Below are positions 3,391-62,981 of a stretch of 64,000 nt of DNA, piece by piece. The stretch covers positions 95,635-159,634 of the forward strand of contig CAMYUM010000001.1 of the NCBI GenBank assembly GCA_947301965.1, written 5' to 3'. Position numbers and translations under genes: made by a program. Position 1 is the first letter of the stretch, and the number at the start of each line of letters is the position of its first letter. Source of the stretch: an uncultured Azospirillum sp. (lineage in GTDB: Bacteria; Pseudomonadota; Alphaproteobacteria; RF32; CAG-239). A model generated the notes under the pieces. It saw only the letters and a program-made list of their open reading frames with translations. It was not told the DNA's origin and did no database searches.

Positions 3391-3532
3391 TTTTATCTCC
3401 TTCAATCATTAAAATATTGTAAGCGAGATTAGCAAAGCCGATGTGTTTTGACAAGAAATAAATTTACACTTTACCAAAAATTAAATCTTATATTGAATAC
3501 TGTTTATAACGTAAATGTTTTAGGAAAAAAAT

Positions 3533-5000: not shown

Positions 5001-5240
5001 TTATTCGTTGGCGTTCGGCCAATTCTTGGCGTTTTCAGCATTGAATGCAACACATTTCGGGTCAGCATCTTCTTCAGAGCTGATAGCTTCTTGCGGGCAT
5101 TCAGAAATGCATACACCGCAGCTGATGCAAGTATCGGGATCAATTACCAATTGAGTATCACCTTCATGAAAAGCATCAACCGGGCATACATCGGCGCAAG
5201 ATTTGCACTTAATGCAGTTGTCGTTAACAACAGAAACCAT
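5001..5240 (-). CDS. 2x[4Fe-4S] ferredoxin
   Basis: The 79-aa protein has two CxxCxxCxxxCP motifs (CIKCKSCADVCPV and CISCGVCISECP). Confidence 0.85.
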   Translation of the reverse strand: MVSVVNDNCIKCKSCADVCPVDAFHEGDTQLVIDPDTCISCGVCISECPQEAISSEEDADPKCVAFNAENAKNWPNANE

Positions 5241-5322
5241 GGTTTATCTCCTTGTTATTATTTGTCAGCCCTCAATCTAAACATATTTAAGATAAAATCA
5301 AGCAAAAAAATAACAAAACTCA

Positions 5323-16789: not shown

Positions 16790-19700
16790 TTACCACGCGT
16801 AGTTTAAACCAGCACCCAAAGCAATGGCATCATAGCTTGAGCCGAAGGTGTAGTTAGCCCAGGCATAGCCGGACAAAGCATCGGTAAAGCCGTAACGTCC
16901 GCCAATTTCAACTCTGCCTAAAGTTTGGTCGCTGTAAGTAGAGGCTTTGTTCATGCCGGTAATCATTACACTGTCGCCGTTGGTAAAGGTACGGATTACA
17001 CTCGGCTTGATATAAACTTTGGCATTATCAAACTGTTTTTCGAGTTTGGCACCCAATTCTGCTTCCAAATGTTTGATGTCTTCCCATTCATAATGTTTAC
17101 CTACATTGTCATCTGCATCATCAAAGTTAACTTGAGTATAGTATATTCCAACACTAGGATCTAACAGTAAGTCATTAGCGAGAGGAATGGTTCTTCCGAT
17201 TTCAATACTGGCTCCAAATTCTACTCCGTCTGTACTGAATTTAGCTATACCGTCATCAGTCTTAACATCGGCTTGTTGAACTCCTCCATATAAGGTAGCA
17301 AATGCCCAGACTAGATATCTATCATAACGATAATATAATCCGGCTAAATAACTGTCTATTTCAATGCTAGAGCCTATGTTAGAGCGGAACTTGTCGCCTT
17401 TGCCCGAGAGGTCATAATCACCTTTACGATAAGAGGCAAATACACCCAAGGTATTATGAGGATCATTCTGAATATCAAATCCGCCTTCAATACCCCAAAT
17501 CTTGGCTTCCATATCAACAGGTTTTTCAATGTCAGCACTTTCGCCTTGAGCCAATACCCATACATTGTGCAGTTTTTCACCGTTCCAGCCGTAATCATAA
17601 ACACCACAGCCGGGGCAGAGTTCACGTCCGGCGGCAACTTTGTTATTTACGTTGCGGACAACGCTGCGAGTTTGTTCGATAGCGGCTTCGTGTAAGCCAA
17701 TACCGGCTACTACTTCAGGTGCATAAATCTTTTCCGGTTTCGGTTGAGGTTCCGGTTCTGGATCTGGTTCAGGTGGAACATAATCCGGGTTTTCTTCATC
17801 AGTCAAATTCAAGTACCAAGTTGAACCAGCATCTTCACCTTTGGCATTAATGGATCCGTCCCACATATACGGACTACCGATTACACGGGCAACCGCAAAC
17901 CTTGAAGATGTTTCGGTATCATCATACGGCGCAAACAGGAACGGGACAATGGCATCATCTTTGTTGTCCAAAACATCGGGGTTGAGAGAGTTGACCAATA
18001 CTCGATATTCACCCTCAACATCACCATCAACATAAATTTGTCCGGTATTGACTTTATTATTAGCTTTATCAACTTCTACATCTACTGTGATGATCGGGGA
18101 TGATCCAGCTCCTGCGGAGTTAGAAGTCGTCATATTCTGAGTAAAGACTTTAGACTTTAATCCCAGGTGGGTAATAGAGTTTGCACCCAACGTGAAGTTA
18201 GTTACGTTTTCAACCAAATTATTAAATTTGACCACACCTGTGCCGTCACCGGAAATGTTGACGTTATAAATTCGACCATCTATGCCATCGTTGAAAGTTA
18301 TTGTGCCATTGTTAACTGCAGAAAGATTTAAGTTTGCAGGCTGTTCTGGTTCATATGTTTCACAATCTTCACATTCTATTTCGGGTTGTCCTTGCATATA
18401 AATCGCATTATTTTTACCATTTACCTTATTTCCGTCAAACAATGATGCCCCATTGTCGGCAGAAATTAGTATGTCTGTATATTCTGAAAAAATTGCCCCA
18501 CCTTTAGAATCATCGTCGCCTTCAACATAGTTGTTTATAAAGTTGGAATTTATAATGTTGACGGTACCTCGATCAATAAAAATAGCTCCACCATATGCAC
18601 TTGAAGAAGTTGACGATGCATGGTTTTCGATAAAATTACCAACAAGCCTGTCAATTTTAGAATTGTTGTCACTGGTAATAGCTCCACCGTAAGCTCCGGA
18701 ATCACCTTGAGCATAGTTACCTATAAAGTCACCTGTTATGCTGCCAATATCCGCGCCGCCGATGTAGAGGCTTCCGCCATTAGCATAATCTCCCAGGGAA
18801 TAGTTACCTGTAAAATTACCGGTGATATTGTTAATTGCAGAATCGCTGTTACTGACAATAGCACCACCAGAAGCAGAAGCACCAGCAGATATTGTTTGAA
18901 CATAGTTACCAGTAAAATTACCGCTTATATCGCCGATTGAACCGCTATTATAAATAGCACCAGCAGAAGCGTCGATGTTTGTTGATAGTGAGTGATTGCT
19001 GATAAAATCAGAATCGACAATACTATCGATGGAGTTAGCGTTATAAATTGCGCCACCGGAGGCGTAGTTGTTTGTGCTTTCAGCAGTGTTTCCGATAAAT
19101 GTACCGGACAAGGTGCCGATTACCCCGCTAAAGGCATCTGATGCAGAAGCTTGAGAGGTGTTGTTGATGGCGCCACCCCAAACGTAGCTATTTTGAGATT
19201 TAGCACGGTTGCCGATAAAGTTTGCATTTATGTTGTTAATTGTTGCATGGTTATCGATTGCACCACCATGTATAAATTTTCCTGAAGCACCGGTTGAATG
19301 GCCGTAGTTATTAACAAAATTGCCCTCAATAGTATCAATTGTTGCGGCAGCAGATGATGTAGAATCAAAATATATGGCTGGTCCGACGACGCTTCCTGTT
19401 GCAGATGAAGTAGTGTTACCGACAAAATCGCCGGATATTGTTCCCAAAGAAATTGGGGTTCCGCGTAATGACAAACCGGCACCATAAGCGGTTGTAGAAG
19501 ATGTTGCAGATGAGGAGTTATTTACAAAATCAGAGTTTATATCCAAATCGGAAATATTGGTGCCCTTGCTATAAATAGCACCACCGTCAGCAGGGCCGGA
19601 GATATTGGTGAATACTTTGTTGTTTACATCGGCTGTTGCTAAAGTGTTATTAATCCGGGTTGAGGTTTCGGTGTAATCATCAGGTTTGTTATAGGTATAA

Positions 19701-19870
19701 TAAAAAGTTTTTTCCCCGATGGTTACAGCCGTTCCCTCGCTGTCTGACCAAGAGATTTTGTTTCCGGTTAAGCTGTTTAGATAATCCGCATCGACATCAT
19801 CAGCCAATGCCGGTGTGCTTAAAAACGTGGCGGTGAGCAATGATGCCGCGGTAAAATGAAGTTTATTCAT
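16790..19870 (-). CDS. Autotransporter (type Va secretion) with a Pmp-like (GGA[IL]/FxxN) repeat passenger domain
   Basis: It has a signal peptide (ASLLTATFLSTPALA), at least ten repeats of F(I/V/T)GN...GGAI(Y/F/D)N, a PEPDPEPEPQPKP linker and a C-terminal beta-barrel ending in W. Confidence 0.85.
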   Translation of the reverse strand: MNKLHFTAASLLTATFLSTPALADDVDADYLNSLTGNKISWSDSEGTAVTIGEKTFYYTYNKPDDYTETSTRINNTLATADVNNKVFTNISGPADGGAIYSKGTNISDLDINSDFVNNSSSATSSTTAYGAGLSLRGTPISLGTISGDFVGNTTSSATGSVVGPAIYFDSTSSAAATIDTIEGNFVNNYGHSTGASGKFIHGGAIDNHATINNINANFIGNRAKSQNSYVWGGAINNTSQASASDAFSGVIGTLSGTFIGNTAESTNNYASGGAIYNANSIDSIVDSDFISNHSLSTNIDASAGAIYNSGSIGDISGNFTGNYVQTISAGASASGGAIVSNSDSAINNITGNFTGNYSLGDYANGGSLYIGGADIGSITGDFIGNYAQGDSGAYGGAITSDNNSKIDRLVGNFIENHASSTSSSAYGGAIFIDRGTVNIINSNFINNYVEGDDDSKGGAIFSEYTDILISADNGASLFDGNKVNGKNNAIYMQGQPEIECEDCETYEPEQPANLNLSAVNNGTITFNDGIDGRIYNVNISGDGTGVVKFNNLVENVTNFTLGANSITHLGLKSKVFTQNMTTSNSAGAGSSPIITVDVEVDKANNKVNTGQIYVDGDVEGEYRVLVNSLNPDVLDNKDDAIVPFLFAPYDDTETSSRFAVARVIGSPYMWDGSINAKGEDAGSTWYLNLTDEENPDYVPPEPDPEPEPQPKPEKIYAPEVVAGIGLHEAAIEQTRSVVRNVNNKVAAGRELCPGCGVYDYGWNGEKLHNVWVLAQGESADIEKPVDMEAKIWGIEGGFDIQNDPHNTLGVFASYRKGDYDLSGKGDKFRSNIGSSIEIDSYLAGLYYRYDRYLVWAFATLYGGVQQADVKTDDGIAKFSTDGVEFGASIEIGRTIPLANDLLLDPSVGIYYTQVNFDDADDNVGKHYEWEDIKHLEAELGAKLEKQFDNAKVYIKPSVIRTFTNGDSVMITGMNKASTYSDQTLGRVEIGGRYGFTDALSGYAWANYTFGSSYDAIALGAGLNYAW

Positions 19871-25824: not shown

Positions 25825-26445
25825 ATGATAGATAAATTAAAAAAGTATAATGCGTTTTATGCAAACAATGGCTCTTGCGGGAACGAAAAGTATTATGAGG
25901 TGTTTAAGTATGCGGATCGAAAATCAAAACTTATTTTGTCTGCTCCGCATGCGACAAAGAGCTTTGTTAGCAAAAAAGAAAAGCCTGCAGATTTATACAC
26001 AGGCGCAATAGTTGAATATGTTGGCGAACAAACAGAGACATCTACACTTATTAGGACTAAATATGTAAATAAAAAGGAGCTGATTTCAGACTATGTAGCA
26101 AACAACGGGCTAGAAAATCATTTTTTTGTTGATGTACATGGATTTGATAAAAATATAGAATATGATGTGTGTTTAGGGATATGTGAATATGAGACTAAAG
26201 GGTATCCATATTTGGAAGATATAATTGCTATCGTGCAGAAATATAACTTAAAGACAATAGTTAATTATCCCGGTTATACGGGGAAGAGCGGATTTACAAG
26301 ACGTTATCAAGAACAATTTGGTAAGCCCAATATAATACAAATGGAATTGAAGAGATATTTGCGCGATTTTTACCATAATCCCGATATTGTCAAAAAAATA
26401 ACAATACCGATGATGATAGAGGTAGCTAATTGCTATAAAAAATAA
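25825..26445 (+). CDS. N-formylglutamate amidohydrolase (FGase) family protein
   Basis: LSAPHAT, DVHGFD and the overall size fit PF05013-type proteins. The gene is markedly more AT-rich than its neighbours. Confidence 0.5.
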   Translation: MIDKLKKYNAFYANNGSCGNEKYYEVFKYADRKSKLILSAPHATKSFVSKKEKPADLYTGAIVEYVGEQTETSTLIRTKYVNKKELISDYVANNGLENHFFVDVHGFDKNIEYDVCLGICEYETKGYPYLEDIIAIVQKYNLKTIVNYPGYTGKSGFTRRYQEQFGKPNIIQMELKRYLRDFYHNPDIVKKITIPMMIEVANCYKK

Positions 26446-32462: not shown

Positions 32463-33173
32463 ATGATTGATATTGTTGAAGAAAGAAAAAAAGCAAAGCA
32501 GGTGGTCGAAAGCAATAACTTTGACTACTTAATCATGTTTGTAATCTGTATGGATGCTATTGCTCTCGGAATGCTGACGATAGGCTTTTATGAAGTTGAT
32601 TTTATTAAGACGATGTTTTTGCTGGATCGGATTTGCATGGCAATTTTTATTGTTGAAATGCTGATAAAGATGTATGCATACGGTCCGAAATTCTTTAAGT
32701 CGGGATGGAATGTGTTTGATTTGGCGATTATTACGATATCGTCATTGCCGGGGAGCGGATACCTGATTATTTTGAGAACTTTCAGATTATTCAGGTTGTT
32801 GAAATATGTTGACAGGTTCAGACGATTGAAAAGCATTATCAATATTATGCTTTTGATTTTGCCTAATTTTGTAGCCATGTGTGCGATTATGACGGTAGTC
32901 GTTTACGTTTTCGGCGTTATGGGAGTTGTGCTTTTTGGCGATGGGGTCGGAGCTTTTAATGATTTAGGAAAGTCGATTTTCACCCTTTTGCAGGCATTTA
33001 CTCTTGATGGCTGGGCATCAACGATAGCTCGTCCGGTTATGCGGGTATATCCGTATGCATGGATGTTCTTTGTAGGTTTTATCATGCTCTCGTTATGGCT
33101 GGTAATAAGTTTTATTTTAAGCGTTATTGCAATGATGGTCAAAAGAGAGTTTAATGTAAAATCAAGACTATAA
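32463..33173 (+). CDS. Single-domain voltage-gated cation channel (BacNav/ion_trans family)
   Basis: It has six TM segments and an S4 voltage sensor with Arg/Lys at every third position (RTFRLFRLLKYVDRFRRLK). The pore loop reads LLQAFTLDGWAS. Confidence 0.7.
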   Translation: MIDIVEERKKAKQVVESNNFDYLIMFVICMDAIALGMLTIGFYEVDFIKTMFLLDRICMAIFIVEMLIKMYAYGPKFFKSGWNVFDLAIITISSLPGSGYLIILRTFRLFRLLKYVDRFRRLKSIINIMLLILPNFVAMCAIMTVVVYVFGVMGVVLFGDGVGAFNDLGKSIFTLLQAFTLDGWASTIARPVMRVYPYAWMFFVGFIMLSLWLVISFILSVIAMMVKREFNVKSRL

Positions 33174-46175: not shown

Positions 46176-46242
46176 ATCGGTAGAACGGAATATTTAATAG
46201 CATATAGGAAAAATTTTGCAAGTACTTTTTTTGTATTTTATA

Positions 46243-46270
46243 AAAAAAACACCCTCCGTGCAGGAGGGTG
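46243..46270 (-). terminator. Terminator of the hydrogenase operon
   Basis: Reverse-strand hairpin caccctcctgcacggagggtg followed by T8, located 22 nt after the hydA stop. Confidence 0.65.
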
Positions 46271-46291
46271 TTGATGTGTTCGGCAAAATGT

Positions 46292-48058
46292 CTATTTGTA
46301 CATATTTCTCGGAGTGTAATGAGTATGTAACAAATGGTGCGATTTTTCACCGCCGGGAGTGCCGAGGAACTCATCATATAAAGCCTTAATAGACTTGTTG
46401 TGATGAGACAGACGGTTGGCGGCTTTTTCGTCTTCGGTGAACAAACCGTTGGCTCGCAACTGACGAATATGGTCAGTGATTCCGTATGGTTTTTCGTATT
46501 CACCGCCGATAACCCGAGGCTGTCCGCCTCCGGCAACGCAACCGCCGCGGCAAGCCATAACTTCAACGAAGTGATACGGCAATTCTTCGCCGTTGGCCTT
46601 GGCTTCACGAATGCGATTTAAGATCTTTTCAACATTGCCGACACCGTGAGCAACTGCAATGCGAACCTCGTTGCCATTAATGGTAACTTTGGTCTCTTTT
46701 ACACCTTCAAGGCCTTCAATGGCCTTAAATTCCGGCTGGGCAAGTTCTTGCCCGGTAATGTAATAATAAGCTGTGCGTAAAGCCGCAGTCATAACACCGC
46801 CGGTGGTACCAAAAATGGTTGCGGCACCGGAATACTCTCCGAGAGGGCTGTCAGCTTGTTCTTCTTTAATGTTGCGGAAATCAATACCGGCTTGTTTTAT
46901 CATTCTGGCAAGTTCGCGAGTGGTGATTGAAACATCAACATCTTGATAGCCTGAAGAACTCATATCGGCACTGCGCGAGATTTCCCACTTTTTGGCGGTA
47001 CATGGCATTACCGAAATAACTCTGATTTTAGCAGGGTCAATGCCGGCTTTTTCAGCAAAATAAGTCTTGGCCATAGCGCCAACCATCTCGTGCGGAGATT
47101 TACAGGTTGAGAAATTCGGGATCATATCGGAATTGAATTTTTCCAGCATATCAACCCAAGCCGGGCAGCAAGATGTAAACATCGGCAAGCTTTCCGGTTC
47201 TTTGGTAAAGCGACGGACAAATTCTGAGGCTTCTTCAATGATAGTTAAGTCAGCACCGAAGTTGGTGTCAAATACCTTATCGAATCCCATGCGACGCAAA
47301 GCAGCATAAGTTTTGCCGGTCAAATTTGCGCCAAATTCAAAACCGAATTCTTCACCGATAGCAACGCGGACGGCAGGTGCGATTTGGACAATGGTGTACA
47401 AATCAGGATTGCGCAACATTTCCCAAACTTTGCCGGTGTCATCATATTCAACAATAGCGCCGGTCGGGCAGTGAGCCGAACATTGTCCGCATTTGATGCA
47501 CGGACTGTCAGCAAGGTTAATGCCGTTGGCCGGGGTAATGCGTGTGGCTAAACCACGGTGCAAATAACTCAAAGCCCAGATGTTTTGCTGGTTTTGGCAA
47601 ACCTCAACACAACGTCCGCACAAAATGCATTTTGAATTGTCGAGAACAATAGCTTTGGTCGAATCGTCGATATCATAACGTTTGGTAAGGTTCGGCAACG
47701 GGGCATCAGTAATGTTAAAGGTGTTGGCCATTTCTTGCAATTCACAAGCACCGGAACGGGCGCAGGACAAACAAGAGTTGGGGTGGTTACTCAAAATGAG
47801 TTTTAATACCATACGGCGAGTTTCAAAAAGCTCGGCGTCGGTAGTAATGACTTCCATTCCTTCGGCAACAGGTGTGCAACAAGAACGAATAATGCGTCCG
47901 TTGATGCGAACGATGCACATTCCGCAACCGGCTGACGGGTCAACATCAGGATGGTTACAGAGTGTCGGAATTTCAATTTGAACACTGCGGGCTGCATCTA
48001 AAACAGAGGTGCCGGCAGGAACTTCAACTTCGTGATTATCAATTTTTAATTTTACCAT
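46292..48058 (-). CDS. hydA: [FeFe]-hydrogenase catalytic subunit (M3-type: 2Fe-2S and 3x 4Fe-4S N-terminal domains plus H-cluster domain)
   Basis: All three H-cluster motifs are present: L1 FTSCCPAW, L2 MPCTAKKWE and L3 EVMACRGGCVAGGGQP. The N-terminus has a 2Fe-2S ferredoxin fold and the 4Fe-4S motifs CILCGRCVEVC and CIKCGQCSAHCP. Confidence 0.9.
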   Translation of the reverse strand: MVKLKIDNHEVEVPAGTSVLDAARSVQIEIPTLCNHPDVDPSAGCGMCIVRINGRIIRSCCTPVAEGMEVITTDAELFETRRMVLKLILSNHPNSCLSCARSGACELQEMANTFNITDAPLPNLTKRYDIDDSTKAIVLDNSKCILCGRCVEVCQNQQNIWALSYLHRGLATRITPANGINLADSPCIKCGQCSAHCPTGAIVEYDDTGKVWEMLRNPDLYTIVQIAPAVRVAIGEEFGFEFGANLTGKTYAALRRMGFDKVFDTNFGADLTIIEEASEFVRRFTKEPESLPMFTSCCPAWVDMLEKFNSDMIPNFSTCKSPHEMVGAMAKTYFAEKAGIDPAKIRVISVMPCTAKKWEISRSADMSSSGYQDVDVSITTRELARMIKQAGIDFRNIKEEQADSPLGEYSGAATIFGTTGGVMTAALRTAYYYITGQELAQPEFKAIEGLEGVKETKVTINGNEVRIAVAHGVGNVEKILNRIREAKANGEELPYHFVEVMACRGGCVAGGGQPRVIGGEYEKPYGITDHIRQLRANGLFTEDEKAANRLSHHNKSIKALYDEFLGTPGGEKSHHLLHTHYTPRNMYK

Positions 48059-48076
48059 ATTCGTAGCTCCTCTATT

Positions 48077-49750
48077 TTATTTTTTTGCAACTTTTGCTTC
48101 GTATTCATTACTAAAGAAGCGAAGGGTTGAAAGCACCGGGTTTGGTGCAGTCTGTCCCAAGCCGCACAATGATGCTTTTTGCATGGCTGTGGCAATTTGG
48201 CGCAGCAAATCAATATCTTCTTTAGTGCCGCGACCTTTGCTGATTTTTTCAAGCAGCATAAGCATTTGTTTGCCGCCGATACGACAAGGGGCGCATTTGC
48301 CGCAAGATTCATCTACGGTAAAGTCGAGGTAGAATTTAGCCAAATCAACCATGTCGGAGCTGTCGTCAATAACAATCATACCGCCTGAACCCATAATTGA
48401 GCCGACTTTTTTCAACTCATCATAGCAAAGCGGAAGATTGATATATTCGGTCGGAATAACACCGCCGGAAGGACCACCGGTCTGAACAGCTTTGAGCTTT
48501 TTACCGTTAGGAACACCGCCACCGATTTCATTGACGATTTCGTTAATGGTGGTACCCATCGGAACCTCAATAAGACCGGAGTGTTCAACCTGACCGGTAA
48601 GAGCAAATACTTTTGTACCTTTTGAAGTTGCGGTACCAAAAGATGAAAACCAGTCGGCACCTTTCAAAATGATTGAAGTAATGTTGGCCAAGGTTTCAAC
48701 GTTGTTGATACAACTCGGTTTGCCCCACAAGCCTTTGTCTGTCGGATAAGGCGGACGTGGGCGAGGTGTTCCGCGGTTGCCTTCAATAGAATGGATAAGA
48801 GCGGTTTCTTCGCCGCAAACAAAAGCACCGGCACCAAGGCGGATATCAATATTGAAACTGAAGTCTGTGCCCATGATGTTGTTGCCGAGCAAACGACTCT
48901 TTTTGCAAGCTTTAATAGCTTTTTCAATACGCTCAACGGCCAAAGGATATTCAGCACGGATATAAAACCAGCCTTCGGTAGCACCGATTGCATAAGCGGC
49001 AATCATCATACCTTCAATAACCGAGTGGGGGTTGGATTCCAAAATACTGCGGTCCATGTAAGCGCCAGGGTCGCCCTCGTCACCGTTGCAAATAATGAAT
49101 TTGTCATCTACGGCTTTAACTTTAGAAGCAAATTCCCATTTCATGCCGGTAGAAAATCCGGCACCGCCGCGGCCACGCAAACCTGATTTTTTGATTTCTT
49201 CAATAACTTGTTGCGGGGTCATGGTTTTTAAGACTTTTTCCAAAGCCAAATAACCACCGTTGGCCATATATTCCTGAATGTCTTCAGGGTCTAAATGACC
49301 AGCCATTTTCAATACCACTTTTTCTTGTTTTTTGAAGAACGGCAAGTCCAAAGACAAAACATATTTTTGCAGATAATCAGGCAAGGTAATCTGTTGTCCG
49401 GCCTCAAGTTTGAGAGCAGGAACAATATGCTCGATGATTATACTGCGGGAAGTCGCCGGATCAATGCGTTTGTACAAAACATCTTTTTGACCTTTGATTT
49501 CAACGCGAATCAACGGACCTTGCGCACAAAGTCCCATACAACCGGTGGCGACAATGCGAACTTTGTCTTGCAGGTTATATTCTTCAATGGTTTTGTGCAT
49601 TAATTCCAAAATCTCATCACTACCAGATGATTTGCAACCCGTTGAATGGCAGCAATAAATGTTGCATTGGTAACGATCCAAATCCTGTTTTTTGTTTTTA
49701 GCGATTTCGTGGATATCGAATCTTTTTTCAATTTCGCTCATATCGGCCAT
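48077..49750 (-). CDS. hydB: NuoF-like flavoprotein subunit of a bifurcating-type hydrogenase (HydB/HndC)
   Basis: The 557-aa protein has an N-terminal thioredoxin-like 2Fe-2S domain, a NuoF FMN/NADH-binding core (GGAGFSTG, C-terminal CGKCAPCR) and 4Fe-4S motifs. Confidence 0.9.
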   Translation of the reverse strand: MADMSEIEKRFDIHEIAKNKKQDLDRYQCNIYCCHSTGCKSSGSDEILELMHKTIEEYNLQDKVRIVATGCMGLCAQGPLIRVEIKGQKDVLYKRIDPATSRSIIIEHIVPALKLEAGQQITLPDYLQKYVLSLDLPFFKKQEKVVLKMAGHLDPEDIQEYMANGGYLALEKVLKTMTPQQVIEEIKKSGLRGRGGAGFSTGMKWEFASKVKAVDDKFIICNGDEGDPGAYMDRSILESNPHSVIEGMMIAAYAIGATEGWFYIRAEYPLAVERIEKAIKACKKSRLLGNNIMGTDFSFNIDIRLGAGAFVCGEETALIHSIEGNRGTPRPRPPYPTDKGLWGKPSCINNVETLANITSIILKGADWFSSFGTATSKGTKVFALTGQVEHSGLIEVPMGTTINEIVNEIGGGVPNGKKLKAVQTGGPSGGVIPTEYINLPLCYDELKKVGSIMGSGGMIVIDDSSDMVDLAKFYLDFTVDESCGKCAPCRIGGKQMLMLLEKISKGRGTKEDIDLLRQIATAMQKASLCGLGQTAPNPVLSTLRFFSNEYEAKVAKK

Positions 49751-49755
49751 GTTGC

Positions 49756-50265
49756 TTACTCCTCTTCTTCAAATTTTTTGCGCCATTCAGCGAGAATGTT
49801 AGAAACATCGCCGGTAGTAACGCGTCCGTAAGTTTTGCCGTTGACAACACAAACCGGCGCCAAACCGCAACAACCTACACAACGCACGCATTGCAGGTGG
49901 AACATATGATCAGGAGTGCTTTCGCCCTCATTAATGCCAAGCTGTTTTTTGAACTCTTCAAGGGTTTTGTCGTTGCCCTTAAGATAACAGGCAGTACCGG
50001 TGCAAACTGAAATAACGGCTTTTCCCGGAGCTTCAAGCTTGAAAAAGTTATAGAAAGTCAAAACCTCATAAATTCGAGCTAAAGGAACATTCATTTCCTG
50101 AGCTAACTCCATGGCATCGTCCCAAGGAACATATCCTTTAACATCCTGAAGCTCATGCAGAGCCATAATCAATGAGCCGCGTTTTTTGCGCCATTTGGCG
50201 GCAATTTGTGCGGCAACAGAAGCATCACCCATACTTATCTCCTCCTGGTAGTGATTTAAAGTCAA
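49756..50265 (-). CDS. hydC: NuoE-like 2Fe-2S subunit of the hydrogenase (HydC/HndA)
   Basis: CTGTACYLKG and CVRCVGCCGLAPV form the NuoE-type 2Fe-2S site. Confidence 0.85.
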   Translation of the reverse strand: MTLNHYQEEISMGDASVAAQIAAKWRKKRGSLIMALHELQDVKGYVPWDDAMELAQEMNVPLARIYEVLTFYNFFKLEAPGKAVISVCTGTACYLKGNDKTLEEFKKQLGINEGESTPDHMFHLQCVRCVGCCGLAPVCVVNGKTYGRVTTGDVSNILAEWRKKFEEEE

Positions 50266-50320
50266 TATAACATATTAGGAAACACTTTAATTTACAAGTA
50301 AAAAATTGATTTTTTAACGA

Positions 50321-52363
50321 TTAAATGTGGCCGGTTTTAAATAATTGCCGATACTTGTAAATACTGCCGTTTTGAACATTCCAGCTAAAGTCTTTATGCA
50401 TGGCGTTTGCAGTCATTTGAACAAGCTTGTCATGATGACGGTAAAATGTTTCAAGAGCTTTGGTCAGCGTTTCGGTGTAGGCATTAACGTTGTTTTTCAG
50501 GCGTTGAGCCGTGAGGTTGTTACCGTATACGCGCCGTTTGCTGGGAGAGAAAAAGACTTCGGTGCGGAAACCGTCAACATCGTTGTCGATGGTGTCAACC
50601 AGTCCGCCGGTGGACATAGCTACCGGCAATGCACCTTTGGCCATGGCTTCCATTTGGGTAAGGCCGCAAGGCTCAAAACGACACGGCATCATATAAAAGT
50701 CTGATGCGAGTTGAATGCTGTAAGCAAAGTCGTCCTGATAGCCGCGGAAAACGAAGATACGTTTGCCGTATTGAGGGTTTTGAGCAGAAATTTTATCTTT
50801 AAGATTGGTCAGATGCTCAAAATATTTAGTATCGCCGGCTCCGCCCAAAACAAAAATCGGAGTTTCAATATTTTTAAGATGCGAAAATCTTTCTGCCAGA
50901 TTGATAATTGATTGAGCGGCAATGTCATAGCCCTTTTGTTCAACCAAACGGCTAGTGGCGCAGATTATCGGAGTGTTTTCTATTTTTTTGATTGAGTTTG
51001 CAATATCTTCAAATTTATAAATATCAATCAAAGGAATGACTTTTTCCTTGAAAGATTTGTCGGTGGCTATCTTTGACAATAGTTTTACAAACTCTTTTTT
51101 GTTTTCTAATTTATCGGACAGGTGGTCCTCGTCGTAGTAGGTAAATTTGAACGGGGCAAAATAGGTGTTGAGTTTGTCAATTTTTTCACGGTTAGGGGCA
51201 ATTAAGTTTTTGTCATAGCCGTTAACAATGCCGAAAAAGTTGCGGTGGTCTTTACGGATTTTCAATATGTCACGAAAGTCTAAACCGAAGTCAAGTTCTT
51301 TGGATACTTCTTCCATGTAGTTTTTGGAAACGGTAACGACACGATCTGCCAAATGAAAGTTGCACGAGGCTTGATTGTAGCAGTCATAAACAATCAACGT
51401 ACTGTTAGTGCGCGGGTTGCTGTTCTTGATTGCTTTGGAGTTTTTGAAAACAAGGCTGCTCAAATTTTCGTATAAAGAATTTAAGATGTGTTGGGTGTGC
51501 TCAAAATCCCAACCTTGATAACCCAGATGGTGTGCAAGATGGATTACGGGAATGTTTTTGAGCTTGTCTGCCAAAGATTGTTCCATGGTTCCGGCCTCAA
51601 CCTGAGCCAATGTAAAATATTTCAGCAAACCGGACAATGCTCCGCTATGCCAGTCATTGGCGACCAAAATATTCGGCATAGGAATTTCGGGTTTTGACTT
51701 TTCGGCTAGGTGTTTGAGTAAGCAGTAAACGGCTTTGGAGAAAAAGGCAAAGCGCTCTACTTCATTAATATTCTCGGAATTTAGGATATAACAGCCATCT
51801 TGGGCAGGATTGTTTTTGGGGTGCGGATTGATTGAGAAAAAGCGGTCATTGTGCAAAAACAGATAGGTTATACCGTTGAATTTTCCGGTATAAACATCGA
51901 CCGGATTTTGGACCAAAGTTCCGCGCGCACCGTTAAAAGGTACTTTAATGGTCAAAACCTTTGTTAATTCAATATTATTTTTTTGAGCACCAAAGTAAGT
52001 TTTGCCGTCGAAGGAGGCAACCTTTTTGCCGGTGTTGCCGATATACATAGGCGTAATAATCAGGACACGATCGGGTGTGTCGGCAAAAGTGGTGTTAAAA
52101 GCTTCGGGAAGTTCGGAAGCAACGACACCGAGACCGCCCCATTTCATAAAGGTTGCGGTTTCTGCCGTAATCATCCAAGCGTTTATGTTGTCTAAACGGG
52201 GCCACTCTTGTTTGCCCAAGCATTGACGGCGTCCGAGGTTTTGGATTTCGGACAGTATAGGATTATTTACCACCCCAAAAGAAATAATGTTCTTTTTGTT
52301 AAATCCTTTGGGGAGCGGTTTGAAGACAGCTTGTTTGTTGCTGCCGATATGCGGTGTGTTCAT
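50321..52363 (-). CDS. glgA: GT5-family glycogen/starch synthase-like alpha-glucan synthase (unusually long, 680 aa)
   Basis: The N-terminal MKWGGLGVVASELP is a K-x-G-G-L motif, and the C-terminal STGGLVDTIDN is the second GT5 signature. Confidence 0.7.
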   Translation of the reverse strand: MNTPHIGSNKQAVFKPLPKGFNKKNIISFGVVNNPILSEIQNLGRRQCLGKQEWPRLDNINAWMITAETATFMKWGGLGVVASELPEAFNTTFADTPDRVLIITPMYIGNTGKKVASFDGKTYFGAQKNNIELTKVLTIKVPFNGARGTLVQNPVDVYTGKFNGITYLFLHNDRFFSINPHPKNNPAQDGCYILNSENINEVERFAFFSKAVYCLLKHLAEKSKPEIPMPNILVANDWHSGALSGLLKYFTLAQVEAGTMEQSLADKLKNIPVIHLAHHLGYQGWDFEHTQHILNSLYENLSSLVFKNSKAIKNSNPRTNSTLIVYDCYNQASCNFHLADRVVTVSKNYMEEVSKELDFGLDFRDILKIRKDHRNFFGIVNGYDKNLIAPNREKIDKLNTYFAPFKFTYYDEDHLSDKLENKKEFVKLLSKIATDKSFKEKVIPLIDIYKFEDIANSIKKIENTPIICATSRLVEQKGYDIAAQSIINLAERFSHLKNIETPIFVLGGAGDTKYFEHLTNLKDKISAQNPQYGKRIFVFRGYQDDFAYSIQLASDFYMMPCRFEPCGLTQMEAMAKGALPVAMSTGGLVDTIDNDVDGFRTEVFFSPSKRRVYGNNLTAQRLKNNVNAYTETLTKALETFYRHHDKLVQMTANAMHKDFSWNVQNGSIYKYRQLFKTGHI

Positions 52364-60077: not shown

Positions 60078-61571
60078 TTATTTGGTCAGCATAAAAAGTT
60101 CAAGAGGTATGTTGTTGATGGCAAACAAACATATGAGCAGACAAAACAAAGCGTAAACAAATAATGTTATGGGAACGGCCGGAATATTGAGAAGCGGAAG
60201 ATGTCGGGAGAACTTGTTGAGTCCGCGGTGCAGCGCTATCATAATTAAGATGATAATTACTGTTTGAGCGCCGATACCTATTTTGTGTATGGAGGCGGCA
60301 AACGGATTGAGTATGGGGTATAGTAAACTCCAAAATAAAAAGTATAAGGCAATTACTCCGGAACTTATATAATTCAAAGTTTTGAGTTTTTTCATTTGCT
60401 CATTTTTATCGCGAGCAATTTTTTCGGGAGTGAGATTTTCAACAGCCATGCCGCGAATGGTTTTGGGGTTTTGGAATTGCTTGCGGATATCGCTGAGATT
60501 GGCCTTTAGTTTTTCTTCCATCATGCATAAGCCACACCCTTTGGAAGAAAAATAAACGTGGTTGTGATTTTTTTTACAATGACGCAGATTGGCAATCAAT
60601 TTGCGTAAATGATGTTCCCACTCTTGAGCGGTGGGGCGTTTGAGCCCTCGAACAAAAGCACGGTCAAAAAGCTCAAGGGTTTCTTTGTCAAAATAATCAT
60701 GAATCGAATAGGGGTGCGGAGCTTGATAAAGATCAGCCCATGAGCCGTAGGCGTAGTGATTTTGAGCAATTCTTTCCTGAATGGTAAGATTGGGAGAGGA
60801 ATTTTTGCGAGGTGTTCCCGAAAAAGGATGAATACCGTTATTGAGTAATTTGAAAATGATAACGGCAAGAGCAAACTTGTCCTGCTCCTCGCCCATCTCA
60901 TCACATCCTTGGTCCATGCCTTCGGGATAGATATATTCTTCACTGACATATTCGGCGGGATAGCGATTTTTTTCACCTTTGATGGAAAAGCCGTCGCAGT
61001 CAAGCATGGAAATCAACATGCTTTCTTTGTAAACGTATACGTTCGACGGTTTGAGGTCGACTATGTAGTGGCCTTTTTCATGAAGGGCGGCAACCATAGA
61101 ACTAAGATTGCAGGCAATACGAATCCTGTATTCATAATTTTCGGGAAGTTTTAGTTTTTGACGCGTGGCTCGCTGCATAAAATGGTCAAGAGAAGCGGCA
61201 AGGCTTAAGTCAATACGCGGCATAAGATAGCCGACACAAAACCCGTTTTCATTTTCAAGCAAGGCTTCGGGCCAGGCAATTTGAATATATTTTTCGCCAT
61301 CGTCCATGGTGAATTCTTTACCGTTTTTGAGTGCGGGAGAAAAAGCCGGACGATTGAGCAACATAGCTTGCAGTTTTTCGCGATTGGTACTGCTTTTTGA
61401 AAGACTGTGAAAAATTTTTGCTACCAGTCTCGGATGTTCCTGCACCTCAAAAATTCTGCCAGCGGCACCGCCTTTGTTGACGAGTTCACCGAGGGTGATT
61501 TTTTCAAAGGAGCCGTCACCATAAACAGCGCTGTATGTCGTACCGATGTTTTCTATCATAGTTTGGCCCAA
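60078..61571 (-). CDS. Ser/Thr protein kinase-like protein with a C-terminal multi-TM anchor
   Basis: It has a beta3 Lys (VAKIF), the catalytic loop HYIVDLKPSNVYV (HxDLKPxN), a DFG-like DCDGFS motif, and three or four C-terminal TM helices. Confidence 0.7.
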   Translation of the reverse strand: MGQTMIENIGTTYSAVYGDGSFEKITLGELVNKGGAAGRIFEVQEHPRLVAKIFHSLSKSSTNREKLQAMLLNRPAFSPALKNGKEFTMDDGEKYIQIAWPEALLENENGFCVGYLMPRIDLSLAASLDHFMQRATRQKLKLPENYEYRIRIACNLSSMVAALHEKGHYIVDLKPSNVYVYKESMLISMLDCDGFSIKGEKNRYPAEYVSEEYIYPEGMDQGCDEMGEEQDKFALAVIIFKLLNNGIHPFSGTPRKNSSPNLTIQERIAQNHYAYGSWADLYQAPHPYSIHDYFDKETLELFDRAFVRGLKRPTAQEWEHHLRKLIANLRHCKKNHNHVYFSSKGCGLCMMEEKLKANLSDIRKQFQNPKTIRGMAVENLTPEKIARDKNEQMKKLKTLNYISSGVIALYFLFWSLLYPILNPFAASIHKIGIGAQTVIIILIMIALHRGLNKFSRHLPLLNIPAVPITLFVYALFCLLICLFAINNIPLELFMLTK

Positions 61572-62326
61572 AGGAATGTTTTGTCATCAGGATTGATTTT
61601 TTGTGCTTGCGGGGTGCTTAAAGTGTTATAAAGAGCGCGATAAGCCCGCTTTTTAAGACGCTCGCTGCTCAAAAAACGATCTATAGGCAAAAGGAAACGG
61701 GACTCAATACGGCTATAGTCAGGCGAAAACGAAAAACCGGTAACCCCGTCACTCATCATCATAATGGTATGAGCTTTTTCGAAGGTGGTAAATCTGATGC
61801 AATCACGCCAGTCGTCCATAGTGTAAAAATATGTTTCACACGAAAAAATGCCGTTTTCGGGTTTTGAGGTTATGTAATGAGAAAAGTCATTACCGGTAAA
61901 AGCTAAGGCAGCACCATCACCGATATGGAAAAAAATTCCGCGATTTTTATGACAGACAACTCCGACCAAGGTTGCGGCAAAGGCCATCAGTCCGCGAGTA
62001 TTGTTGCGGGAATTGAGGCGATGAAACAGTAATTTTTCGCGGGCTATTTCAACAGAATTTATGATAGATGTTTTGATGTCGACAAAAGGTACGTTGGACA
62101 ATAAATCAACGAGCGTATCGCACAAAATTTTGGCTCCGATACGTCCGTATTTTGCAGAACCGGCACCATCAGAAATAACGGCAACAAAGTTATCGCCGTT
62201 TGTTGAGTGGCGGCAATAATCCTGACAGGGAGCCTTTTTTATTTTGTGTAAAGGTCCCGTAACACAAGCAGATAATACGCGAATGTGTTTAGTGTTGTTC
62301 TTCATCCCAGTTTCCAGTGTCTTCAA
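61556..62326 (-). CDS. PP2C-family Ser/Thr phosphatase
   Basis: It has the PP2C metal-binding motifs AVISDGAGSAKYG, FHIGDGAALAF and MMMSDGVTGF. Its ends overlap both neighbouring genes. Confidence 0.7.
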   Translation of the reverse strand: MKTLETGMKNNTKHIRVLSACVTGPLHKIKKAPCQDYCRHSTNGDNFVAVISDGAGSAKYGRIGAKILCDTLVDLLSNVPFVDIKTSIINSVEIAREKLLFHRLNSRNNTRGLMAFAATLVGVVCHKNRGIFFHIGDGAALAFTGNDFSHYITSKPENGIFSCETYFYTMDDWRDCIRFTTFEKAHTIMMMSDGVTGFSFSPDYSRIESRFLLPIDRFLSSERLKKRAYRALYNTLSTPQAQKINPDDKTFLWAKL

Positions 62327-62981
62327 GATAATCAGAAGTATTTGGAGCTGCTTTTGATATGCAGGATACGCTACGGCTTAACCATAAGAAAAACTCAGTA
62401 AATTTGAGACCGCTGAGGCGTTTGGGTGAATTCAGCGAGAATTTTGCGAGTTTTTCGAGGTTTGCTTCTTCGGTGCCGACAGCATGAATAACAACTTTTT
62501 TGTTTTTTTGAGCAAGACAACATTTTTGTGCCACGCTTTCCCAATCATAGTCAGTCGGCTCTCCGTCGCTAATCAGAAAAATCCACGGACGTTTTGATGT
62601 AATTCCGCAACTGTCATACAGGCATTTTTGCTCTTCAATTTTTTGCAAAGCAAGTTCCATTGCTTTACCCAGAGGAGTTAGACCTCCGGCGACCATCTCA
62701 GGAGCAGTGAAGTTCATGGCATCAACCCAATCTGCAGAAACCTCGGTTTCGTCTTTTCCGAAAGCTTTGATAATTAAGAGCTGAACGCGAGAACTGGCAT
62801 CAATATCTTCTTTGAGTTCTCTTTCAAGAGCTTTCAGTCCGGCGTTGAGCTGTTTTATAGGTTCGCCGCGCATTGAGCCGGAGCAATCCAAAACCAAAAC
62901 ACAGGGCGTGCGTTCGTTGGCGTTGTCGGCAAACTCTACATAAGGAATCATTTCGTCAATAAAATTATTTTGGGCGCTCAT
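62289..62981 (-). CDS. von Willebrand factor A (vWA) domain protein
   Basis: The MIDAS motif is present as LVLDCSGSM...T...FLISDGEPTD. Confidence 0.75.
   Translation of the reverse strand: MSAQNNFIDEMIPYVEFADNANERTPCVLVLDCSGSMRGEPIKQLNAGLKALERELKEDIDASSRVQLLIIKAFGKDETEVSADWVDAMNFTAPEMVAGGLTPLGKAMELALQKIEEQKCLYDSCGITSKRPWIFLISDGEPTDYDWESVAQKCCLAQKNKKVVIHAVGTEEANLEKLAKFSLNSPKRLSGLKFTEFFLWLSRSVSCISKAAPNTSDYLEDTGNWDEEQH

What the first reader, a model, noticed from the sequence alone, without database searches (positions are those of the whole stretch)
46292..50265. Complete trimeric NuoE/NuoF/HydA [FeFe]-hydrogenase operon in a genome that otherwise looks alphaproteobacterial
The three genes hydC (NuoE-like), hydB (NuoF-like with an N-terminal 2Fe-2S domain) and hydA (H-cluster motifs TSCCPAW, MPCTAKK and ExMACxGGCxxGGGQP all intact) form a tight operon with its own terminator. 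This subunit composition is that of NAD(H)/ferredoxin-dependent bifurcating-type hydrogenases of anaerobes. The rest of the window carries alphaproteobacterial hallmarks: a DUF2312/GapR gene, the leuS-lptE-holA order and the rpmH-rnpA-yidD-yidC-engB order. [FeFe]-hydrogenases are rare in that class and are of interest for the mitochondrion/hydrogenosome question and for anaerobic endosymbiont lifestyles. No HydE/F/G maturase genes are in the window. A 2x[4Fe-4S] ferredoxin, pyruvate kinase, pnt transhydrogenase and a GT5 glucan synthase are nearby and fit a fermentative metabolism.
Basis: partly seen in the sequence, partly recalled or inferred. Interest (0 to 1): 0.65.

Follow-up and report, generated by a model that had tools for sequence, protein, structure and literature searches.

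The report
Gut alphaproteobacterial hydrogenase lacking its ferredoxin arm
This is a real, intact three-gene iron-iron hydrogenase operon in a rumen or gut alphaproteobacterium; it is routine in that lineage and was published in 2016, but its NADH-binding subunit has lost the module that bifurcating relatives use to talk to ferredoxin.

Summary
hydC, hydB and hydA lie on the minus strand at 46292-50265, with intact H-cluster motifs, a ribosome-binding site and a terminator. No maturase genes are in the window.

The host is alphaproteobacterial: it has GapR, and syntenic contigs of rumen and gut MAGs are labelled Alphaproteobacteria or Rhodospirillales.

The operon is not a rarity in this lineage.
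- At least 70 species-level genomes of the clade carry it (HydA 68-97% identical), often in the same grpE-GT5-hydCBA-tRNA-Gly-holA-lptE-leuS context.
- dN/dS is 0.02-0.07 and composition is host-like.
- Degli Esposti et al. 2016 already reported this cluster in gut alphaproteobacterial MAGs, with maturases and PFOR, and made the mitochondrion argument.

The new point concerns HydB.
- It groups among bifurcating HydB and keeps their diagnostic core residues.
- In all 64 full-length clade members, window included, it lacks the C-terminal 2x[4Fe-4S] domain and the Cys/His hinge site. Together these form the ferredoxin branch.
- It therefore fails the published Bfu family definition.

My best reading (about 0.55) is a ferredoxin-independent, reversible NADH-linked hydrogenase. 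The rival (about 0.3) is confurcation with free ferredoxin docking in trans. Only biochemistry can decide between them.

The parts
50269..50297 (-). Weak promoter-like element upstream of hydC (TTGTAA, 17 nt, TATGTT)
   Evidence: Read directly from the sequence. It scores 8 of 12 and falls below the scan tool's threshold. A similar TTGCAA...TATGCT lies upstream of tRNA-Gly. This is inference only. No terminator separates the upstream GT5 gene from hydC, so read-through is possible.
50241..50246 (-). Ribosome-binding site AGGAGG for hydC
   Evidence: It lies 8 nt upstream of the ATG at 50232.
49756..50265 (-). hydC (NuoE-like, thioredoxin-like [2Fe-2S] cluster C1). The longest ORF starts at TTG 50265; the likely start is ATG 50232.
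   Evidence: (PF01257, E 4e-46). The best solved relative is T. kivui HydC, 8a6t_C. dN/dS is 0.016-0.028.
48077..49750 (-). hydB (NuoF-like). It has an N-terminal [2Fe-2S] domain (Cys34/39/71/75), an FMN/NADH site and an N3-type [4Fe-4S] cluster. It has no C-terminal 2x[4Fe-4S] domain and no Cys/His hinge site.
   Evidence: It aligns to A. woodii HydB residues 6-529 of 599 and to A. mobile HydB residues 4-527 of 597. The hinge ligands are replaced by D466, S504 and K553, and the protein ends 4 residues later. The core residues A230, M232, F310 and GGPSG425-429 are of the bifurcating type.
46292..48058 (-). hydA (M3-type group A [FeFe]-hydrogenase catalytic subunit with a fused small-subunit-like C-terminus)
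   Evidence: NF040763 above cut-off; three H-cluster motifs; dN/dS 0.03-0.07. The best solved relatives are T. kivui and A. woodii HydA.
46248..46272 (-). Intrinsic-terminator-like hairpin followed by a T-run, ending the operon

Best explanation
hydCBA is a functional operon, inherited vertically within a gut and rumen alphaproteobacterial lineage (probably GTDB order RF32). It encodes a soluble heterotrimeric NAD(H)-linked [FeFe]-hydrogenase.

The enzyme descends from the electron-bifurcating HydABC (Bfu) type found in anaerobes. Its HydB has lost the whole low-potential exit: the Cys/His hinge site and the C-terminal B3/B4 2x[4Fe-4S] ferredoxin-like domain.

Inferred electron path: NADH, then FMN in HydB, then the N3-type [4Fe-4S] cluster B1, then the HydA Fe-S chain, then the H-cluster, then H2.

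The enzyme most likely works as a ferredoxin-independent, reversible NADH:H+ oxidoreductase. It would dispose of glycolytic NADH as H2 while hydrogen consumers in the rumen or gut keep H2 low. Ferredoxin reduced by PFOR would be handled by another enzyme.

Shown here: gene content, cofactor ligands, the domain loss, its conservation, and purifying selection. Inferred: the catalytic direction and ferredoxin independence.
For: Identity and integrity:
- Domains and motifs are intact.
- The best solved relatives of all three subunits are T. kivui and A. woodii HydABC.

Loss of the ferredoxin branch:
- HydB ends 4 residues after the position that aligns with His525 of A. mobile HydB.
- The hinge ligands C438, C476 and H525 are D, S and K; C531 and C536 are absent (residue numbers from Feng 2022, PMC8880783).
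- All 66 clade loci with a HydB 3' end have a 0-11 aa tail without a Cys motif. HydB from Treponema, Gracilinema and Omnitrophota, which accompany the next-nearest HydA, carry 68-75 aa tails with two CxxCxxCxxxC motifs.
- In 64 of 64 full-length clade HydB (window included) the hinge positions are D/N, variable, and K/I. They are never Cys or His.

What the literature says about the missing module:
- It is present in all characterised bifurcating HydABC and absent from non-bifurcating NAD-dependent ones (Furlan 2022, PMC9499530).
- Deleting the HydB C-terminus gave low bifurcation activity (Katsyv 2023, PMC10021017).
- Ferredoxin binds at the B3/B4 domain, and the low-potential path is C1 to B3 to B4 to ferredoxin (Xiao 2025, PMC12018979).
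- The Bfu family is defined as including a 4Fe-4S ferredoxin-type domain in BfuB (Schut 2022, PMC9304861).

Function is maintained:
- dN/dS is 0.016-0.070.
- All full-length clade HydA keep the three H-cluster motifs.
- HydG lies on the same contig as hydCBA in clade member L049 (898 bits).
- HydEFG and PFOR were reported in gut alphaproteobacterial MAGs that are probably of this lineage; that link is my inference from MAG naming (PMC4967309).

Vertical descent:
- The grpE-GT5-hydCBA-MT-holA-lptE-leuS order is conserved in 12 genomes, with LeuS at 83-97% and HydA at 76-97% identity.
- GC3 and codon usage fall within the window's range.

Precedent: ferredoxin-independent NADH hydrogenases exist in S. 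wolfei and S. aciditrophicus (PMC7311640) and in rumen anaerobic fungi (PMC13556243).
Against: - The three residue-level criteria that Losey et al. 2020 proposed to tell bifurcating from non-bifurcating beta subunits all read 'bifurcating' here, and they are invariant in 64 of 64 clade sequences. These are A..M rather than T/S..K, F rather than Y, and GGPSG.
- The FMN-B1-C1 'flavobicluster', now proposed as the bifurcation site, is fully retained, as is the N-terminal [2Fe-2S] cluster B5.
- H2 production from NADH alone is only feasible at very low H2, about 1-10 Pa. By my own knowledge, rumen H2 is often higher than that.
- No enzyme of this clade has been assayed.
Confidence: 0.55

Rival explanations
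1. It is still an electron-confurcating or bifurcating hydrogenase. The covalently attached B3/B4 domain is replaced in trans: a free 2x[4Fe-4S] ferredoxin, the structural homologue of the lost domain, docks directly next to the mobile HydC C1 cluster. NADH and reduced ferredoxin from PFOR would then together drive H2 production.
For: - The bifurcation-type signature residues are invariant across the clade (A230, M232, F310, GGPSG), as are the FMN, B1, B5 and C1 ligands.
- All three subunits are closest to proven bifurcating enzymes.
- PFOR and short ferredoxins are reported in gut alphaproteobacterial MAGs probably of this lineage (PMC4967309).
- A clostridial-type 2x[4Fe-4S] ferredoxin is encoded in the window at 5001-5243.
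- Confurcation would remove the thermodynamic problem of making H2 from NADH.
Against: - Every characterised bifurcating HydB has the C-terminal domain.
- Deleting that domain, or mutating B4, strongly lowers bifurcation activity.
- The hinge ligands are also gone.
- The ferredoxin gene is 41 kb away and is not linked to the operon.
- The signature residues may simply be inherited rather than functionally required.
Confidence: 0.3
2. The enzyme works physiologically in the uptake direction. It would use gut H2 to reduce NAD+, acting as an NAD+-reducing hydrogenase analogous to Hox, rather than evolving H2.
For: - NADH-dependent [FeFe]-hydrogenases are reversible (PMC7311640).
- H2 to NAD+ is the exergonic direction at ordinary gut H2 levels (thermodynamic values).
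- The HydB architecture, an N-terminal [2Fe-2S] domain plus a NuoF core with no C-terminal domain, matches that of HoxF and FdsB. By length and score, solved relatives such as 6vw7_B (520 aa) and 6tg9_B (500 aa) show it.
Against: - No NADH-consuming respiratory or CO2-fixing module is visible in the window.
- Genomes of the lineage are small and described as reduced and fermentative (PMC8199421).
- PFOR-type fermentation reported in related MAGs fits H2 evolution.
- The tools available here cannot test direction.
Confidence: 0.1
3. The operon is a recent horizontal acquisition or a mis-binned or contaminant segment, and is not a genuine long-standing trait of an alphaproteobacterium.
For: - The nearest HydA and HydB outside the clade belong to Spirochaetota and Omnitrophota, at about 60% identity.
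- An unrelated organism with 67% GC carries the same truncated type of HydB.
- Ancient transfer of the operon between phyla is therefore likely.
Against: - In the window and in 12 related genomes the operon lies on the same contig between grpE/GT5 and holA/lptE/leuS.
- GC3 (0.42-0.46) and codon usage are typical of the window.
- Divergence of HydA and HydB tracks that of LeuS across the clade.
- More than 60 clade genomes from independent studies and hosts have it.
Confidence: 0.03

Closest known systems
NuoE/NuoF/M3-HydA gene cluster of human-gut alphaproteobacterial MAGs (Azospirillum sp. CAG:239 CDB53275-7; Acetobacter sp. CAG:977), Degli Esposti et al. 2016 (PMC4967309)
   Same: It has the same three-gene cluster and the same kind of host. 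It probably belongs to the same lineage, since clade members are titled 'Azospirillum sp. 51_20' and 'uncultured Azospirillum sp.'. The same evolutionary argument was made for it. HydEFG and PFOR were reported in those genomes.
   Different: The window comes from a rumen-type species; the nearest genomes are about 82-86% identical in DNA. In the passages I retrieved, the 2016 paper describes only homology to hymABC and complex I subunits and does not mention the missing HydB C-terminal domain. I could not confirm the CDB accessions by direct sequence identity.
Electron-bifurcating HydABC / Bfu family (T. maritima 7p5h, A. woodii 7q4v, T. kivui 8a6t; A. mobile NiFe-HydABCSL 7t2r)
   Same: These are the best solved relatives of all three subunits. 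The gene order and HydA cofactor domains match. The FMN, B1, B5 and C1 ligands and the Losey signature residues also match.
   Different: HydB lacks the Zn/B2 hinge ligands and the B3/B4 2x[4Fe-4S] domain, which form the ferredoxin-binding, low-potential branch. It therefore fails the family definition of Schut 2022.
[quoted passage not shown]
   Same: They are multimeric [FeFe]-hydrogenases with a NuoF-like beta subunit that lacks the C-terminal clusters. This is the predicted mode of action here.
   Different: Those beta subunits lack B2-B5 altogether and carry T/S..K, Y and no GGPSG. The window HydB keeps B5 and has A..M, F and GGPSG. It groups among bifurcating-type HydB rather than among sequences with the non-bifurcating signatures.
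Hydrogenosomal Hyd + NuoE/NuoF (Trichomonas; Caecomyces churrovis, Zhang et al. 2026, PMC13556243)
   Same: A [FeFe]-hydrogenase works with NuoE-like and NuoF-like subunits that lack the ferredoxin-type C-terminal domain. In a rumen organism this system was shown to make H2 from NADH without ferredoxin.
   Different: Eukaryotic NuoE/F descend from mitochondrial complex I. The window HydB scores 666 bits against bifurcating HydB but about 300-320 bits against mitochondrial and Paracoccus NuoF.
HoxF/HoxE and FdsB/FdsG diaphorase modules
   Same: They share the HydB architecture: an N-terminal thioredoxin-like [2Fe-2S] domain plus a NuoF core with no C-terminal ferredoxin domain.
   Different: They are much more distant in sequence (about 40-44% identity for representatives of similar length). 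They are partnered with NiFe hydrogenase or formate dehydrogenase, and their core residues are mostly T..K and Y.

Membership tests
Group A [FeFe]-hydrogenase catalytic subunit (HydA) | H-cluster binding motifs L1 TSCCPxW, L2 MPCxxKxxE and L3 ExMxCxxGCxxGGGQP | tested here: met
   TSCCPAW at 295, MPCTAKKWE at 351 and EVMACRGGCVAGGGQP at 499. PF02906 E 4e-94.
Group A [FeFe]-hydrogenase catalytic subunit (HydA) | Score above the curated family cut-off (NCBIfam NF040763, 'NADH-dependent [FeFe] hydrogenase, group A6') | tested here: met
   783.2 bits against a cut-off of 765. I did not establish whether this model separates bifurcating from non-bifurcating enzymes, so I use the match only for family membership.
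Trimeric HydABC-type hydrogenase | Adjacent genes for a NuoE-like [2Fe-2S] subunit, a NuoF-like FMN/[4Fe-4S] subunit and HydA | tested here: met
   The order hydC-hydB-hydA is conserved in all related loci that have enough sequence.
Bfu (electron-bifurcating HydABC-like) family, Schut et al. 2022 | BfuB contains the NuoF FMN-binding, SLBB and NuoF [4Fe-4S] domains (IPR011538, IPR019554, IPR019575) | tested here: met
   The Pfam counterparts PF01512, PF10531 and PF10589 are present.
Bfu (electron-bifurcating HydABC-like) family, Schut et al. 2022 | BfuB contains a 4Fe-4S ferredoxin-type domain (IPR017896; clusters B3/B4) at its C-terminus | tested here: not met
   There is no Fer4 hit in HydB. 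The protein ends 4 residues after K553, the counterpart of A. mobile His525, so the last ~70 residues of the A. mobile and A. woodii chains have no counterpart. All 66 clade loci with a HydB 3' end have a 0-11 aa tail with no CxxCxxCxxxC motif.
Bfu (electron-bifurcating HydABC-like) family, Schut et al. 2022 | Hinge metal site of BfuB (Zn or B2): Cys438, His525, Cys531 and Cys536 conserved, with Cys476 semi-conserved as Cys or Thr (A. mobile numbering) | tested here: not met
   The window has D466, S504 and K553, and the last two ligands lie beyond its C-terminus. Across 64 clade sequences the three positions are D/N, variable, and K/I.
Bfu (electron-bifurcating HydABC-like) family, Schut et al. 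2022 | N-terminal [2Fe-2S] (B5) in BfuB and [2Fe-2S] (C1) in BfuC | tested here: met
   HydB Cys34, 39, 71 and 75 are invariant. HydC matches PF01257 over its full length, and the CTGTAC...CVGCC motif was read.
Bfu (electron-bifurcating HydABC-like) family, Schut et al. 2022 | Tightly coupled NAD(H)- and ferredoxin-dependent catalysis | not testable with these tools
   This needs an enzyme assay.
Non-bifurcating NADH-dependent [FeFe]-hydrogenase beta subunit (Losey et al. 2020 criteria) | Thr/Ser and Lys/Ser/Ala at T. maritima HydB positions 232 and 234, Tyr at 367, and no GGPSG at 427-431 | tested here: not met
   The window has DPGAYMDR (Ala, Met), GAGAFVCGEE (Phe) and GGPSG. These are invariant in 64 of 64 clade sequences.
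Non-bifurcating NADH-dependent [FeFe]-hydrogenase beta subunit (Losey et al. 2020 criteria) | Fewer Fe-S cluster domains than bifurcating beta subunits | tested here: inconclusive
   The C-terminal clusters are absent, as in S. wolfei. The N-terminal [2Fe-2S] domain is retained, unlike the B2-B5-less homologues described.
Alphaproteobacteria (host assignment) | GapR (DUF2312), a nucleoid protein characteristic of the class by my own knowledge, and nearest genomes assigned to the class | tested here: met
   PF10073 E 1.5e-33 at 3148-3405. Contigs syntenic over leuS, holA, dnaB and L28 come from MAGs titled Alphaproteobacteria or Rhodospirillales. Those titles are the submitters' assignments.
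Alphaproteobacteria (host assignment) | Placement by 16S rRNA or ribosomal-protein phylogeny; order-level assignment (RF32) | not tested
   There is no rRNA in the window and no reference marker set was available. RF32 is inferred from the statement that ruminant alphaproteobacterial MAGs of the RGIG set are mainly reduced RF32 genomes (PMC8199421).
H-cluster maturation system | HydE, HydF and HydG present in the genome | tested here: inconclusive
   None is in the 64-kb window. HydG (TIGR03955, 898 bits) lies on the same contig as hydCBA in clade member L049. All three are reported for gut alphaproteobacterial MAGs that are probably of this lineage. The rest of this genome cannot be seen.

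The most novel reading that the evidence does not exclude
The clade may carry a natural 'minimal' or split bifurcating hydrogenase. The FMN-B1-C1 flavobicluster and B5 are kept under strict selection, with every bifurcation-signature residue invariant, while the B3/B4 exit module has been discarded. Free ferredoxin would then dock directly at the mobile HydC domain. If so, the covalent ferredoxin-like domain and the hinge metal site are dispensable for flavin-based bifurcation in the Bfu family. That would contradict the current structural models and the family definition.
Probability: 0.17. Interest if true: 0.7.

Novelty: new variant of a known kind. Interest (0 to 1): 0.35.

Why it matters
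The headline, an [FeFe]-hydrogenase operon in an alphaproteobacterium, is not new. It was described in 2016 and is present in dozens of public gut and rumen genomes.

What is useful is a clean natural experiment for the bifurcation field:
- A large, well-sampled clade has a HydB that groups among bifurcating enzymes and keeps all their proposed diagnostic core residues.
- That same HydB has lost exactly the hinge site and the B3/B4 domain that structural work assigns to ferredoxin coupling.
- The two published ways of predicting 'bifurcating or not' from sequence disagree on it.

Assaying one member would test which criterion is right. It would also show whether these abundant gut and rumen Alphaproteobacteria release H2 from NADH alone, which matters for gut and rumen hydrogen and methane budgets.

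HydB and HydC are much closer to bifurcating-hydrogenase subunits than to complex I subunits. This weakens the use of the operon as evidence for an alphaproteobacterial origin of the hydrogenosomal NuoE/F-hydrogenase system.

Tried and rejected
- **Exact-sequence look-up of HydA.** It was not on record, so the source assembly could not be named.
- **Linking the clade to the 2016 accessions (CDB53275-7).** The cluster-member look-up returned no such accessions, so the link rests on organism naming only.
- **Literature searches for RF32 or CAG-239 hydrogenases.** They gave only catalogue papers and nothing on HydB architecture.
- **Compositional test for horizontal transfer.** GC, GC3 and codon-usage distance of hydABC are unremarkable, so it was negative.
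- **Resolving the sister group of the clade's HydB.** I used neighbour-joining with 100 bootstraps. The clade itself gets 100% and the clade plus P0121 gets 88%. The Omnitrophota sister relation gets only 43%, so the donor lineage is unresolved.
- **Looking for a relocated ferredoxin domain.** None lies between the hyd genes (gaps of 18 and 5 nt) and none is fused to HydA or HydC. The only 2x[4Fe-4S] ORF in the window is 41 kb away.
- **Searching locus flanks for maturases with a radical-SAM motif.** One true HydG turned up in the clade (L049). The other candidates were HemW and MiaB. HydE and HydF were not found in the flanks.
- **Frameshift or assembly truncation of HydB.** Rejected, because independent assemblies from many hosts share the short form.
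- **NCBIfam's 'NADH-dependent' name for HydA as evidence of mechanism.** Not used; I did not establish whether the model discriminates the two types.

Full report
**What is there**

Three tightly packed minus-strand ORFs occupy 46292-50265: hydC, hydB and hydA.
- HydA (588 aa) has the full M3 architecture: an N-terminal [2Fe-2S] domain, a His-type [4Fe-4S] domain, two ferredoxin-type [4Fe-4S] clusters, the H-domain and a fused small-subunit-like tail.
- It carries all three H-cluster motifs.
- It scores above the curated NCBIfam cut-off for '[FeFe] hydrogenase, group A6'.
- HydB (557 aa) has an N-terminal thioredoxin-like [2Fe-2S] domain and a NuoF core.
- HydC is NuoE-like.

hydC most likely starts at the ATG at 50232, behind an AGGAGG, rather than at the TTG at 50265. 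A weak promoter-like element precedes it. A strong terminator-like hairpin follows hydA at 46272-46248, and a tRNA-Gly gene comes next.

None of the other window ORFs that I scanned is HydE, HydF or HydG.

**Whose genome**

The exact HydA is not on record. A scan of one genome per GTDB species returned about 70 genomes with HydA 68-97% identical.
- All of them are rumen, ruminant-gut, human, mouse or other gut MAGs.
- Their titles read Alphaproteobacteria, Rhodospirillales or 'Azospirillum sp.'.
- The next hits, at about 60%, are Treponema, Gracilinema and Omnitrophota.

Twelve of these contigs share the window's order grpE-GT5-hydCBA-methyltransferase-holA-lptE-leuS, with LeuS at 83-97% identity. 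The nearest are about 82-86% identical in DNA.

The window also encodes GapR. Ruminant alphaproteobacterial MAGs of this kind are described as reduced RF32 genomes of about 1.6 Mb (PMC8199421). I did not test the order assignment.

**Vertical or horizontal descent**

Within the clade the operon behaves like a resident gene set.
- hydCBA is intact wherever the contig allows.
- Divergence of the hydrogenase genes tracks that of housekeeping genes.
- dN/dS is 0.016-0.070.
- GC3 and codon usage fall inside the window's distribution.

Outside the clade, all three subunits are closest to HydABC of anaerobes and not to complex I.
- HydB scores 666 bits against bifurcating HydB, but 300-400 bits against NuoF, including mitochondrial and Paracoccus forms.
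- HydC and HydA behave likewise.

An old inter-phylum transfer of the whole operon is therefore likely. The donor is unresolved.

**Prior knowledge**

Degli Esposti et al. 2016 (PMC4967309) already reported a NuoE/NuoF/M3-HydA cluster in human-gut alphaproteobacterial MAGs (Azospirillum sp. CAG:239, Acetobacter sp. CAG:977).
- They also reported HydE, HydF, HydG, PFOR and short ferredoxins in those genomes.
- They used these findings to argue for an alphaproteobacterial ancestry of eukaryotic hydrogenases.
- Later work places eukaryotic NuoE/F with complex I and attributes the maturases and PFOR to other donors (PMC7449678; PMC13556243).

In this lineage the operon is the rule rather than a rarity.

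**The part that differs**

The window HydB aligns to A. woodii HydB residues 6-529 of 599 and to A. mobile HydB residues 4-527 of 597, and then stops.

Two things are missing:
- The roughly 70-residue C-terminal 2x[4Fe-4S] domain (clusters B3/B4).
- The five ligands of the hinge metal site. C438, C476 and H525 correspond to D466, S504 and K553, and C531 and C536 lie beyond the C-terminus.

This is a property of the clade and not an assembly accident.
- All 66 related loci with the HydB 3' end have a tail of 0-11 residues with no cysteine motif.
- The Treponema, Gracilinema and Omnitrophota HydB have 68-75-residue tails with two CxxCxxCxxxC motifs.

Across 64 full-length clade sequences:
- The hinge positions are never Cys or His.
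- The ligands of the N-terminal [2Fe-2S] cluster and the N3-type [4Fe-4S] cluster are invariant.
- The three residue signatures that Losey et al. proposed for bifurcating beta subunits (Ala..Met, Phe, GGPSG) are invariant (criteria).

I also searched 1.84 billion representative proteins with HydB.
- Nearly every representative with those signatures carries the Cys-x-His hinge and either the two-motif ~72-residue tail or a longer C-terminal extension.
- The single close exception is P0121 (61% identity), which groups with the clade at 88% bootstrap.
- P0121 lies in a hydC-hydB-hydA operon of an unrelated organism with 67% GC.

**Mechanistic reading**

Four published results bear on the missing module:
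- It is present in all characterised bifurcating HydABC and absent from the non-bifurcating NAD-dependent enzymes (PMC9499530).
- Its deletion lowers bifurcation activity (PMC10021017).
- In a Bfu enzyme, ferredoxin was seen bound at the B3/B4 domain, and the low-potential path is C1 to B3 to B4 to ferredoxin (PMC12018979).
- The Bfu family is defined as including a ferredoxin-type 4Fe-4S domain in BfuB (PMC9304861).

The window enzyme keeps the proposed bifurcation site (FMN, B1, C1) but has no exit to ferredoxin.

I therefore consider a ferredoxin-independent, reversible NADH:H+ oxidoreductase the most likely function. This resembles S. wolfei Hyd1ABC and the Hyd-NuoEF system of rumen anaerobic fungi, and it would rely on hydrogen consumers to keep H2 low.

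The main rival is confurcation with a free ferredoxin docking in trans. It is supported by the strictly conserved bifurcation-type core residues and by the thermodynamic advantage. Sequence analysis cannot separate the two readings.

**Verdict**

The operon is real, functional and resident in a gut or rumen alphaproteobacterium. As a 'hydrogenase in an alphaproteobacterium' it is already known and ordinary for the lineage. Its HydB is a distinct, clade-wide variant that fails the Bfu membership test while also failing the published non-bifurcating signature test. That conflict makes it a modestly interesting target for enzymology.

Noticed in passing
L081:7499-11471 (ENA ERZ10759792 contig NODE_234); also L082 and L083: An unrelated organism with about 67% GC (DnaB only 36% identical to the window's) carries a hydC-hydB-hydA operon. 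Its HydB (P0121, 565 aa, 61% identical) also lacks the C-terminal ferredoxin domain and the hinge ligands. The short form is therefore not confined to the alphaproteobacterial clade and may predate a transfer.
   Followed up: partly
L049:2130-3584 (minus strand): A HydG maturase (TIGR03955, 898 bits) lies about 6.4 kb from hydC on the same contig in a roe-deer rumen member of the clade. In the Omnitrophota loci HydG- and HydE-like genes sit a few kb downstream of hydA; HydG and HydE were confirmed by family search only for L077.
   Followed up: partly
window 50321-52363 (minus strand): An unusually long (680 aa) GT5/GT1 glycogen-synthase-like gene sits directly upstream of hydC with no terminator between them. 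The GT5-grpE pair stays within a few kb of hydCBA in most clade genomes, even where the other neighbours differ.
   Followed up: partly
window 46176-46245 and 50269-50297 (minus strand): Similar promoter-like elements (TTGnAA, about 17 nt, TATGnT) precede both hydC and the tRNA-Gly gene. This may be the organism's house promoter form, and it falls below the consensus scan's threshold.
   Followed up: no
window 25825-26445 (plus strand): A 206-aa ORF with no family match has markedly low GC (0.327; GC3 0.30) against a window mean of 0.42. It is the clearest compositional outlier in the window and may be foreign DNA.
   Followed up: no
window 16790-19870 (minus strand): A 1026-aa autotransporter with a C-terminal beta-barrel domain and the lowest GC3 among the large genes. 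It is a surface or host-interaction candidate in a gut organism with a reduced genome.
   Followed up: no
window 60078-62981 (minus strand): A cluster of a eukaryote-like Ser/Thr protein kinase, a PP2C phosphatase and a VWA-domain protein.
   Followed up: no
window 32463-33173 (plus strand): A 236-aa single-domain Ion_trans protein, which looks like a bacterial voltage-gated cation channel.
   Followed up: no
window 1061-2026 (minus strand): A 321-aa ORF that matches only the N-terminal 209 residues of PntA. It could be a split transhydrogenase alpha subunit or a shortened dI domain. The other pnt parts were not examined.
   Followed up: no
window 1-64000: GC skew is positive almost throughout and the cumulative skew rises monotonically. 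It flattens only over minus-strand gene blocks such as hydCBA. The whole window therefore seems to lie on one replichore.
   Followed up: no
L073:1-3731 (uncultured bacterium SRP342105_co1_337): This contig has a HydB 71% identical to the window's over residues 183-557, with only a 5-aa tail, next to a HydA only 59% identical. It may be another carrier of the short HydB outside the clade.
   Followed up: no
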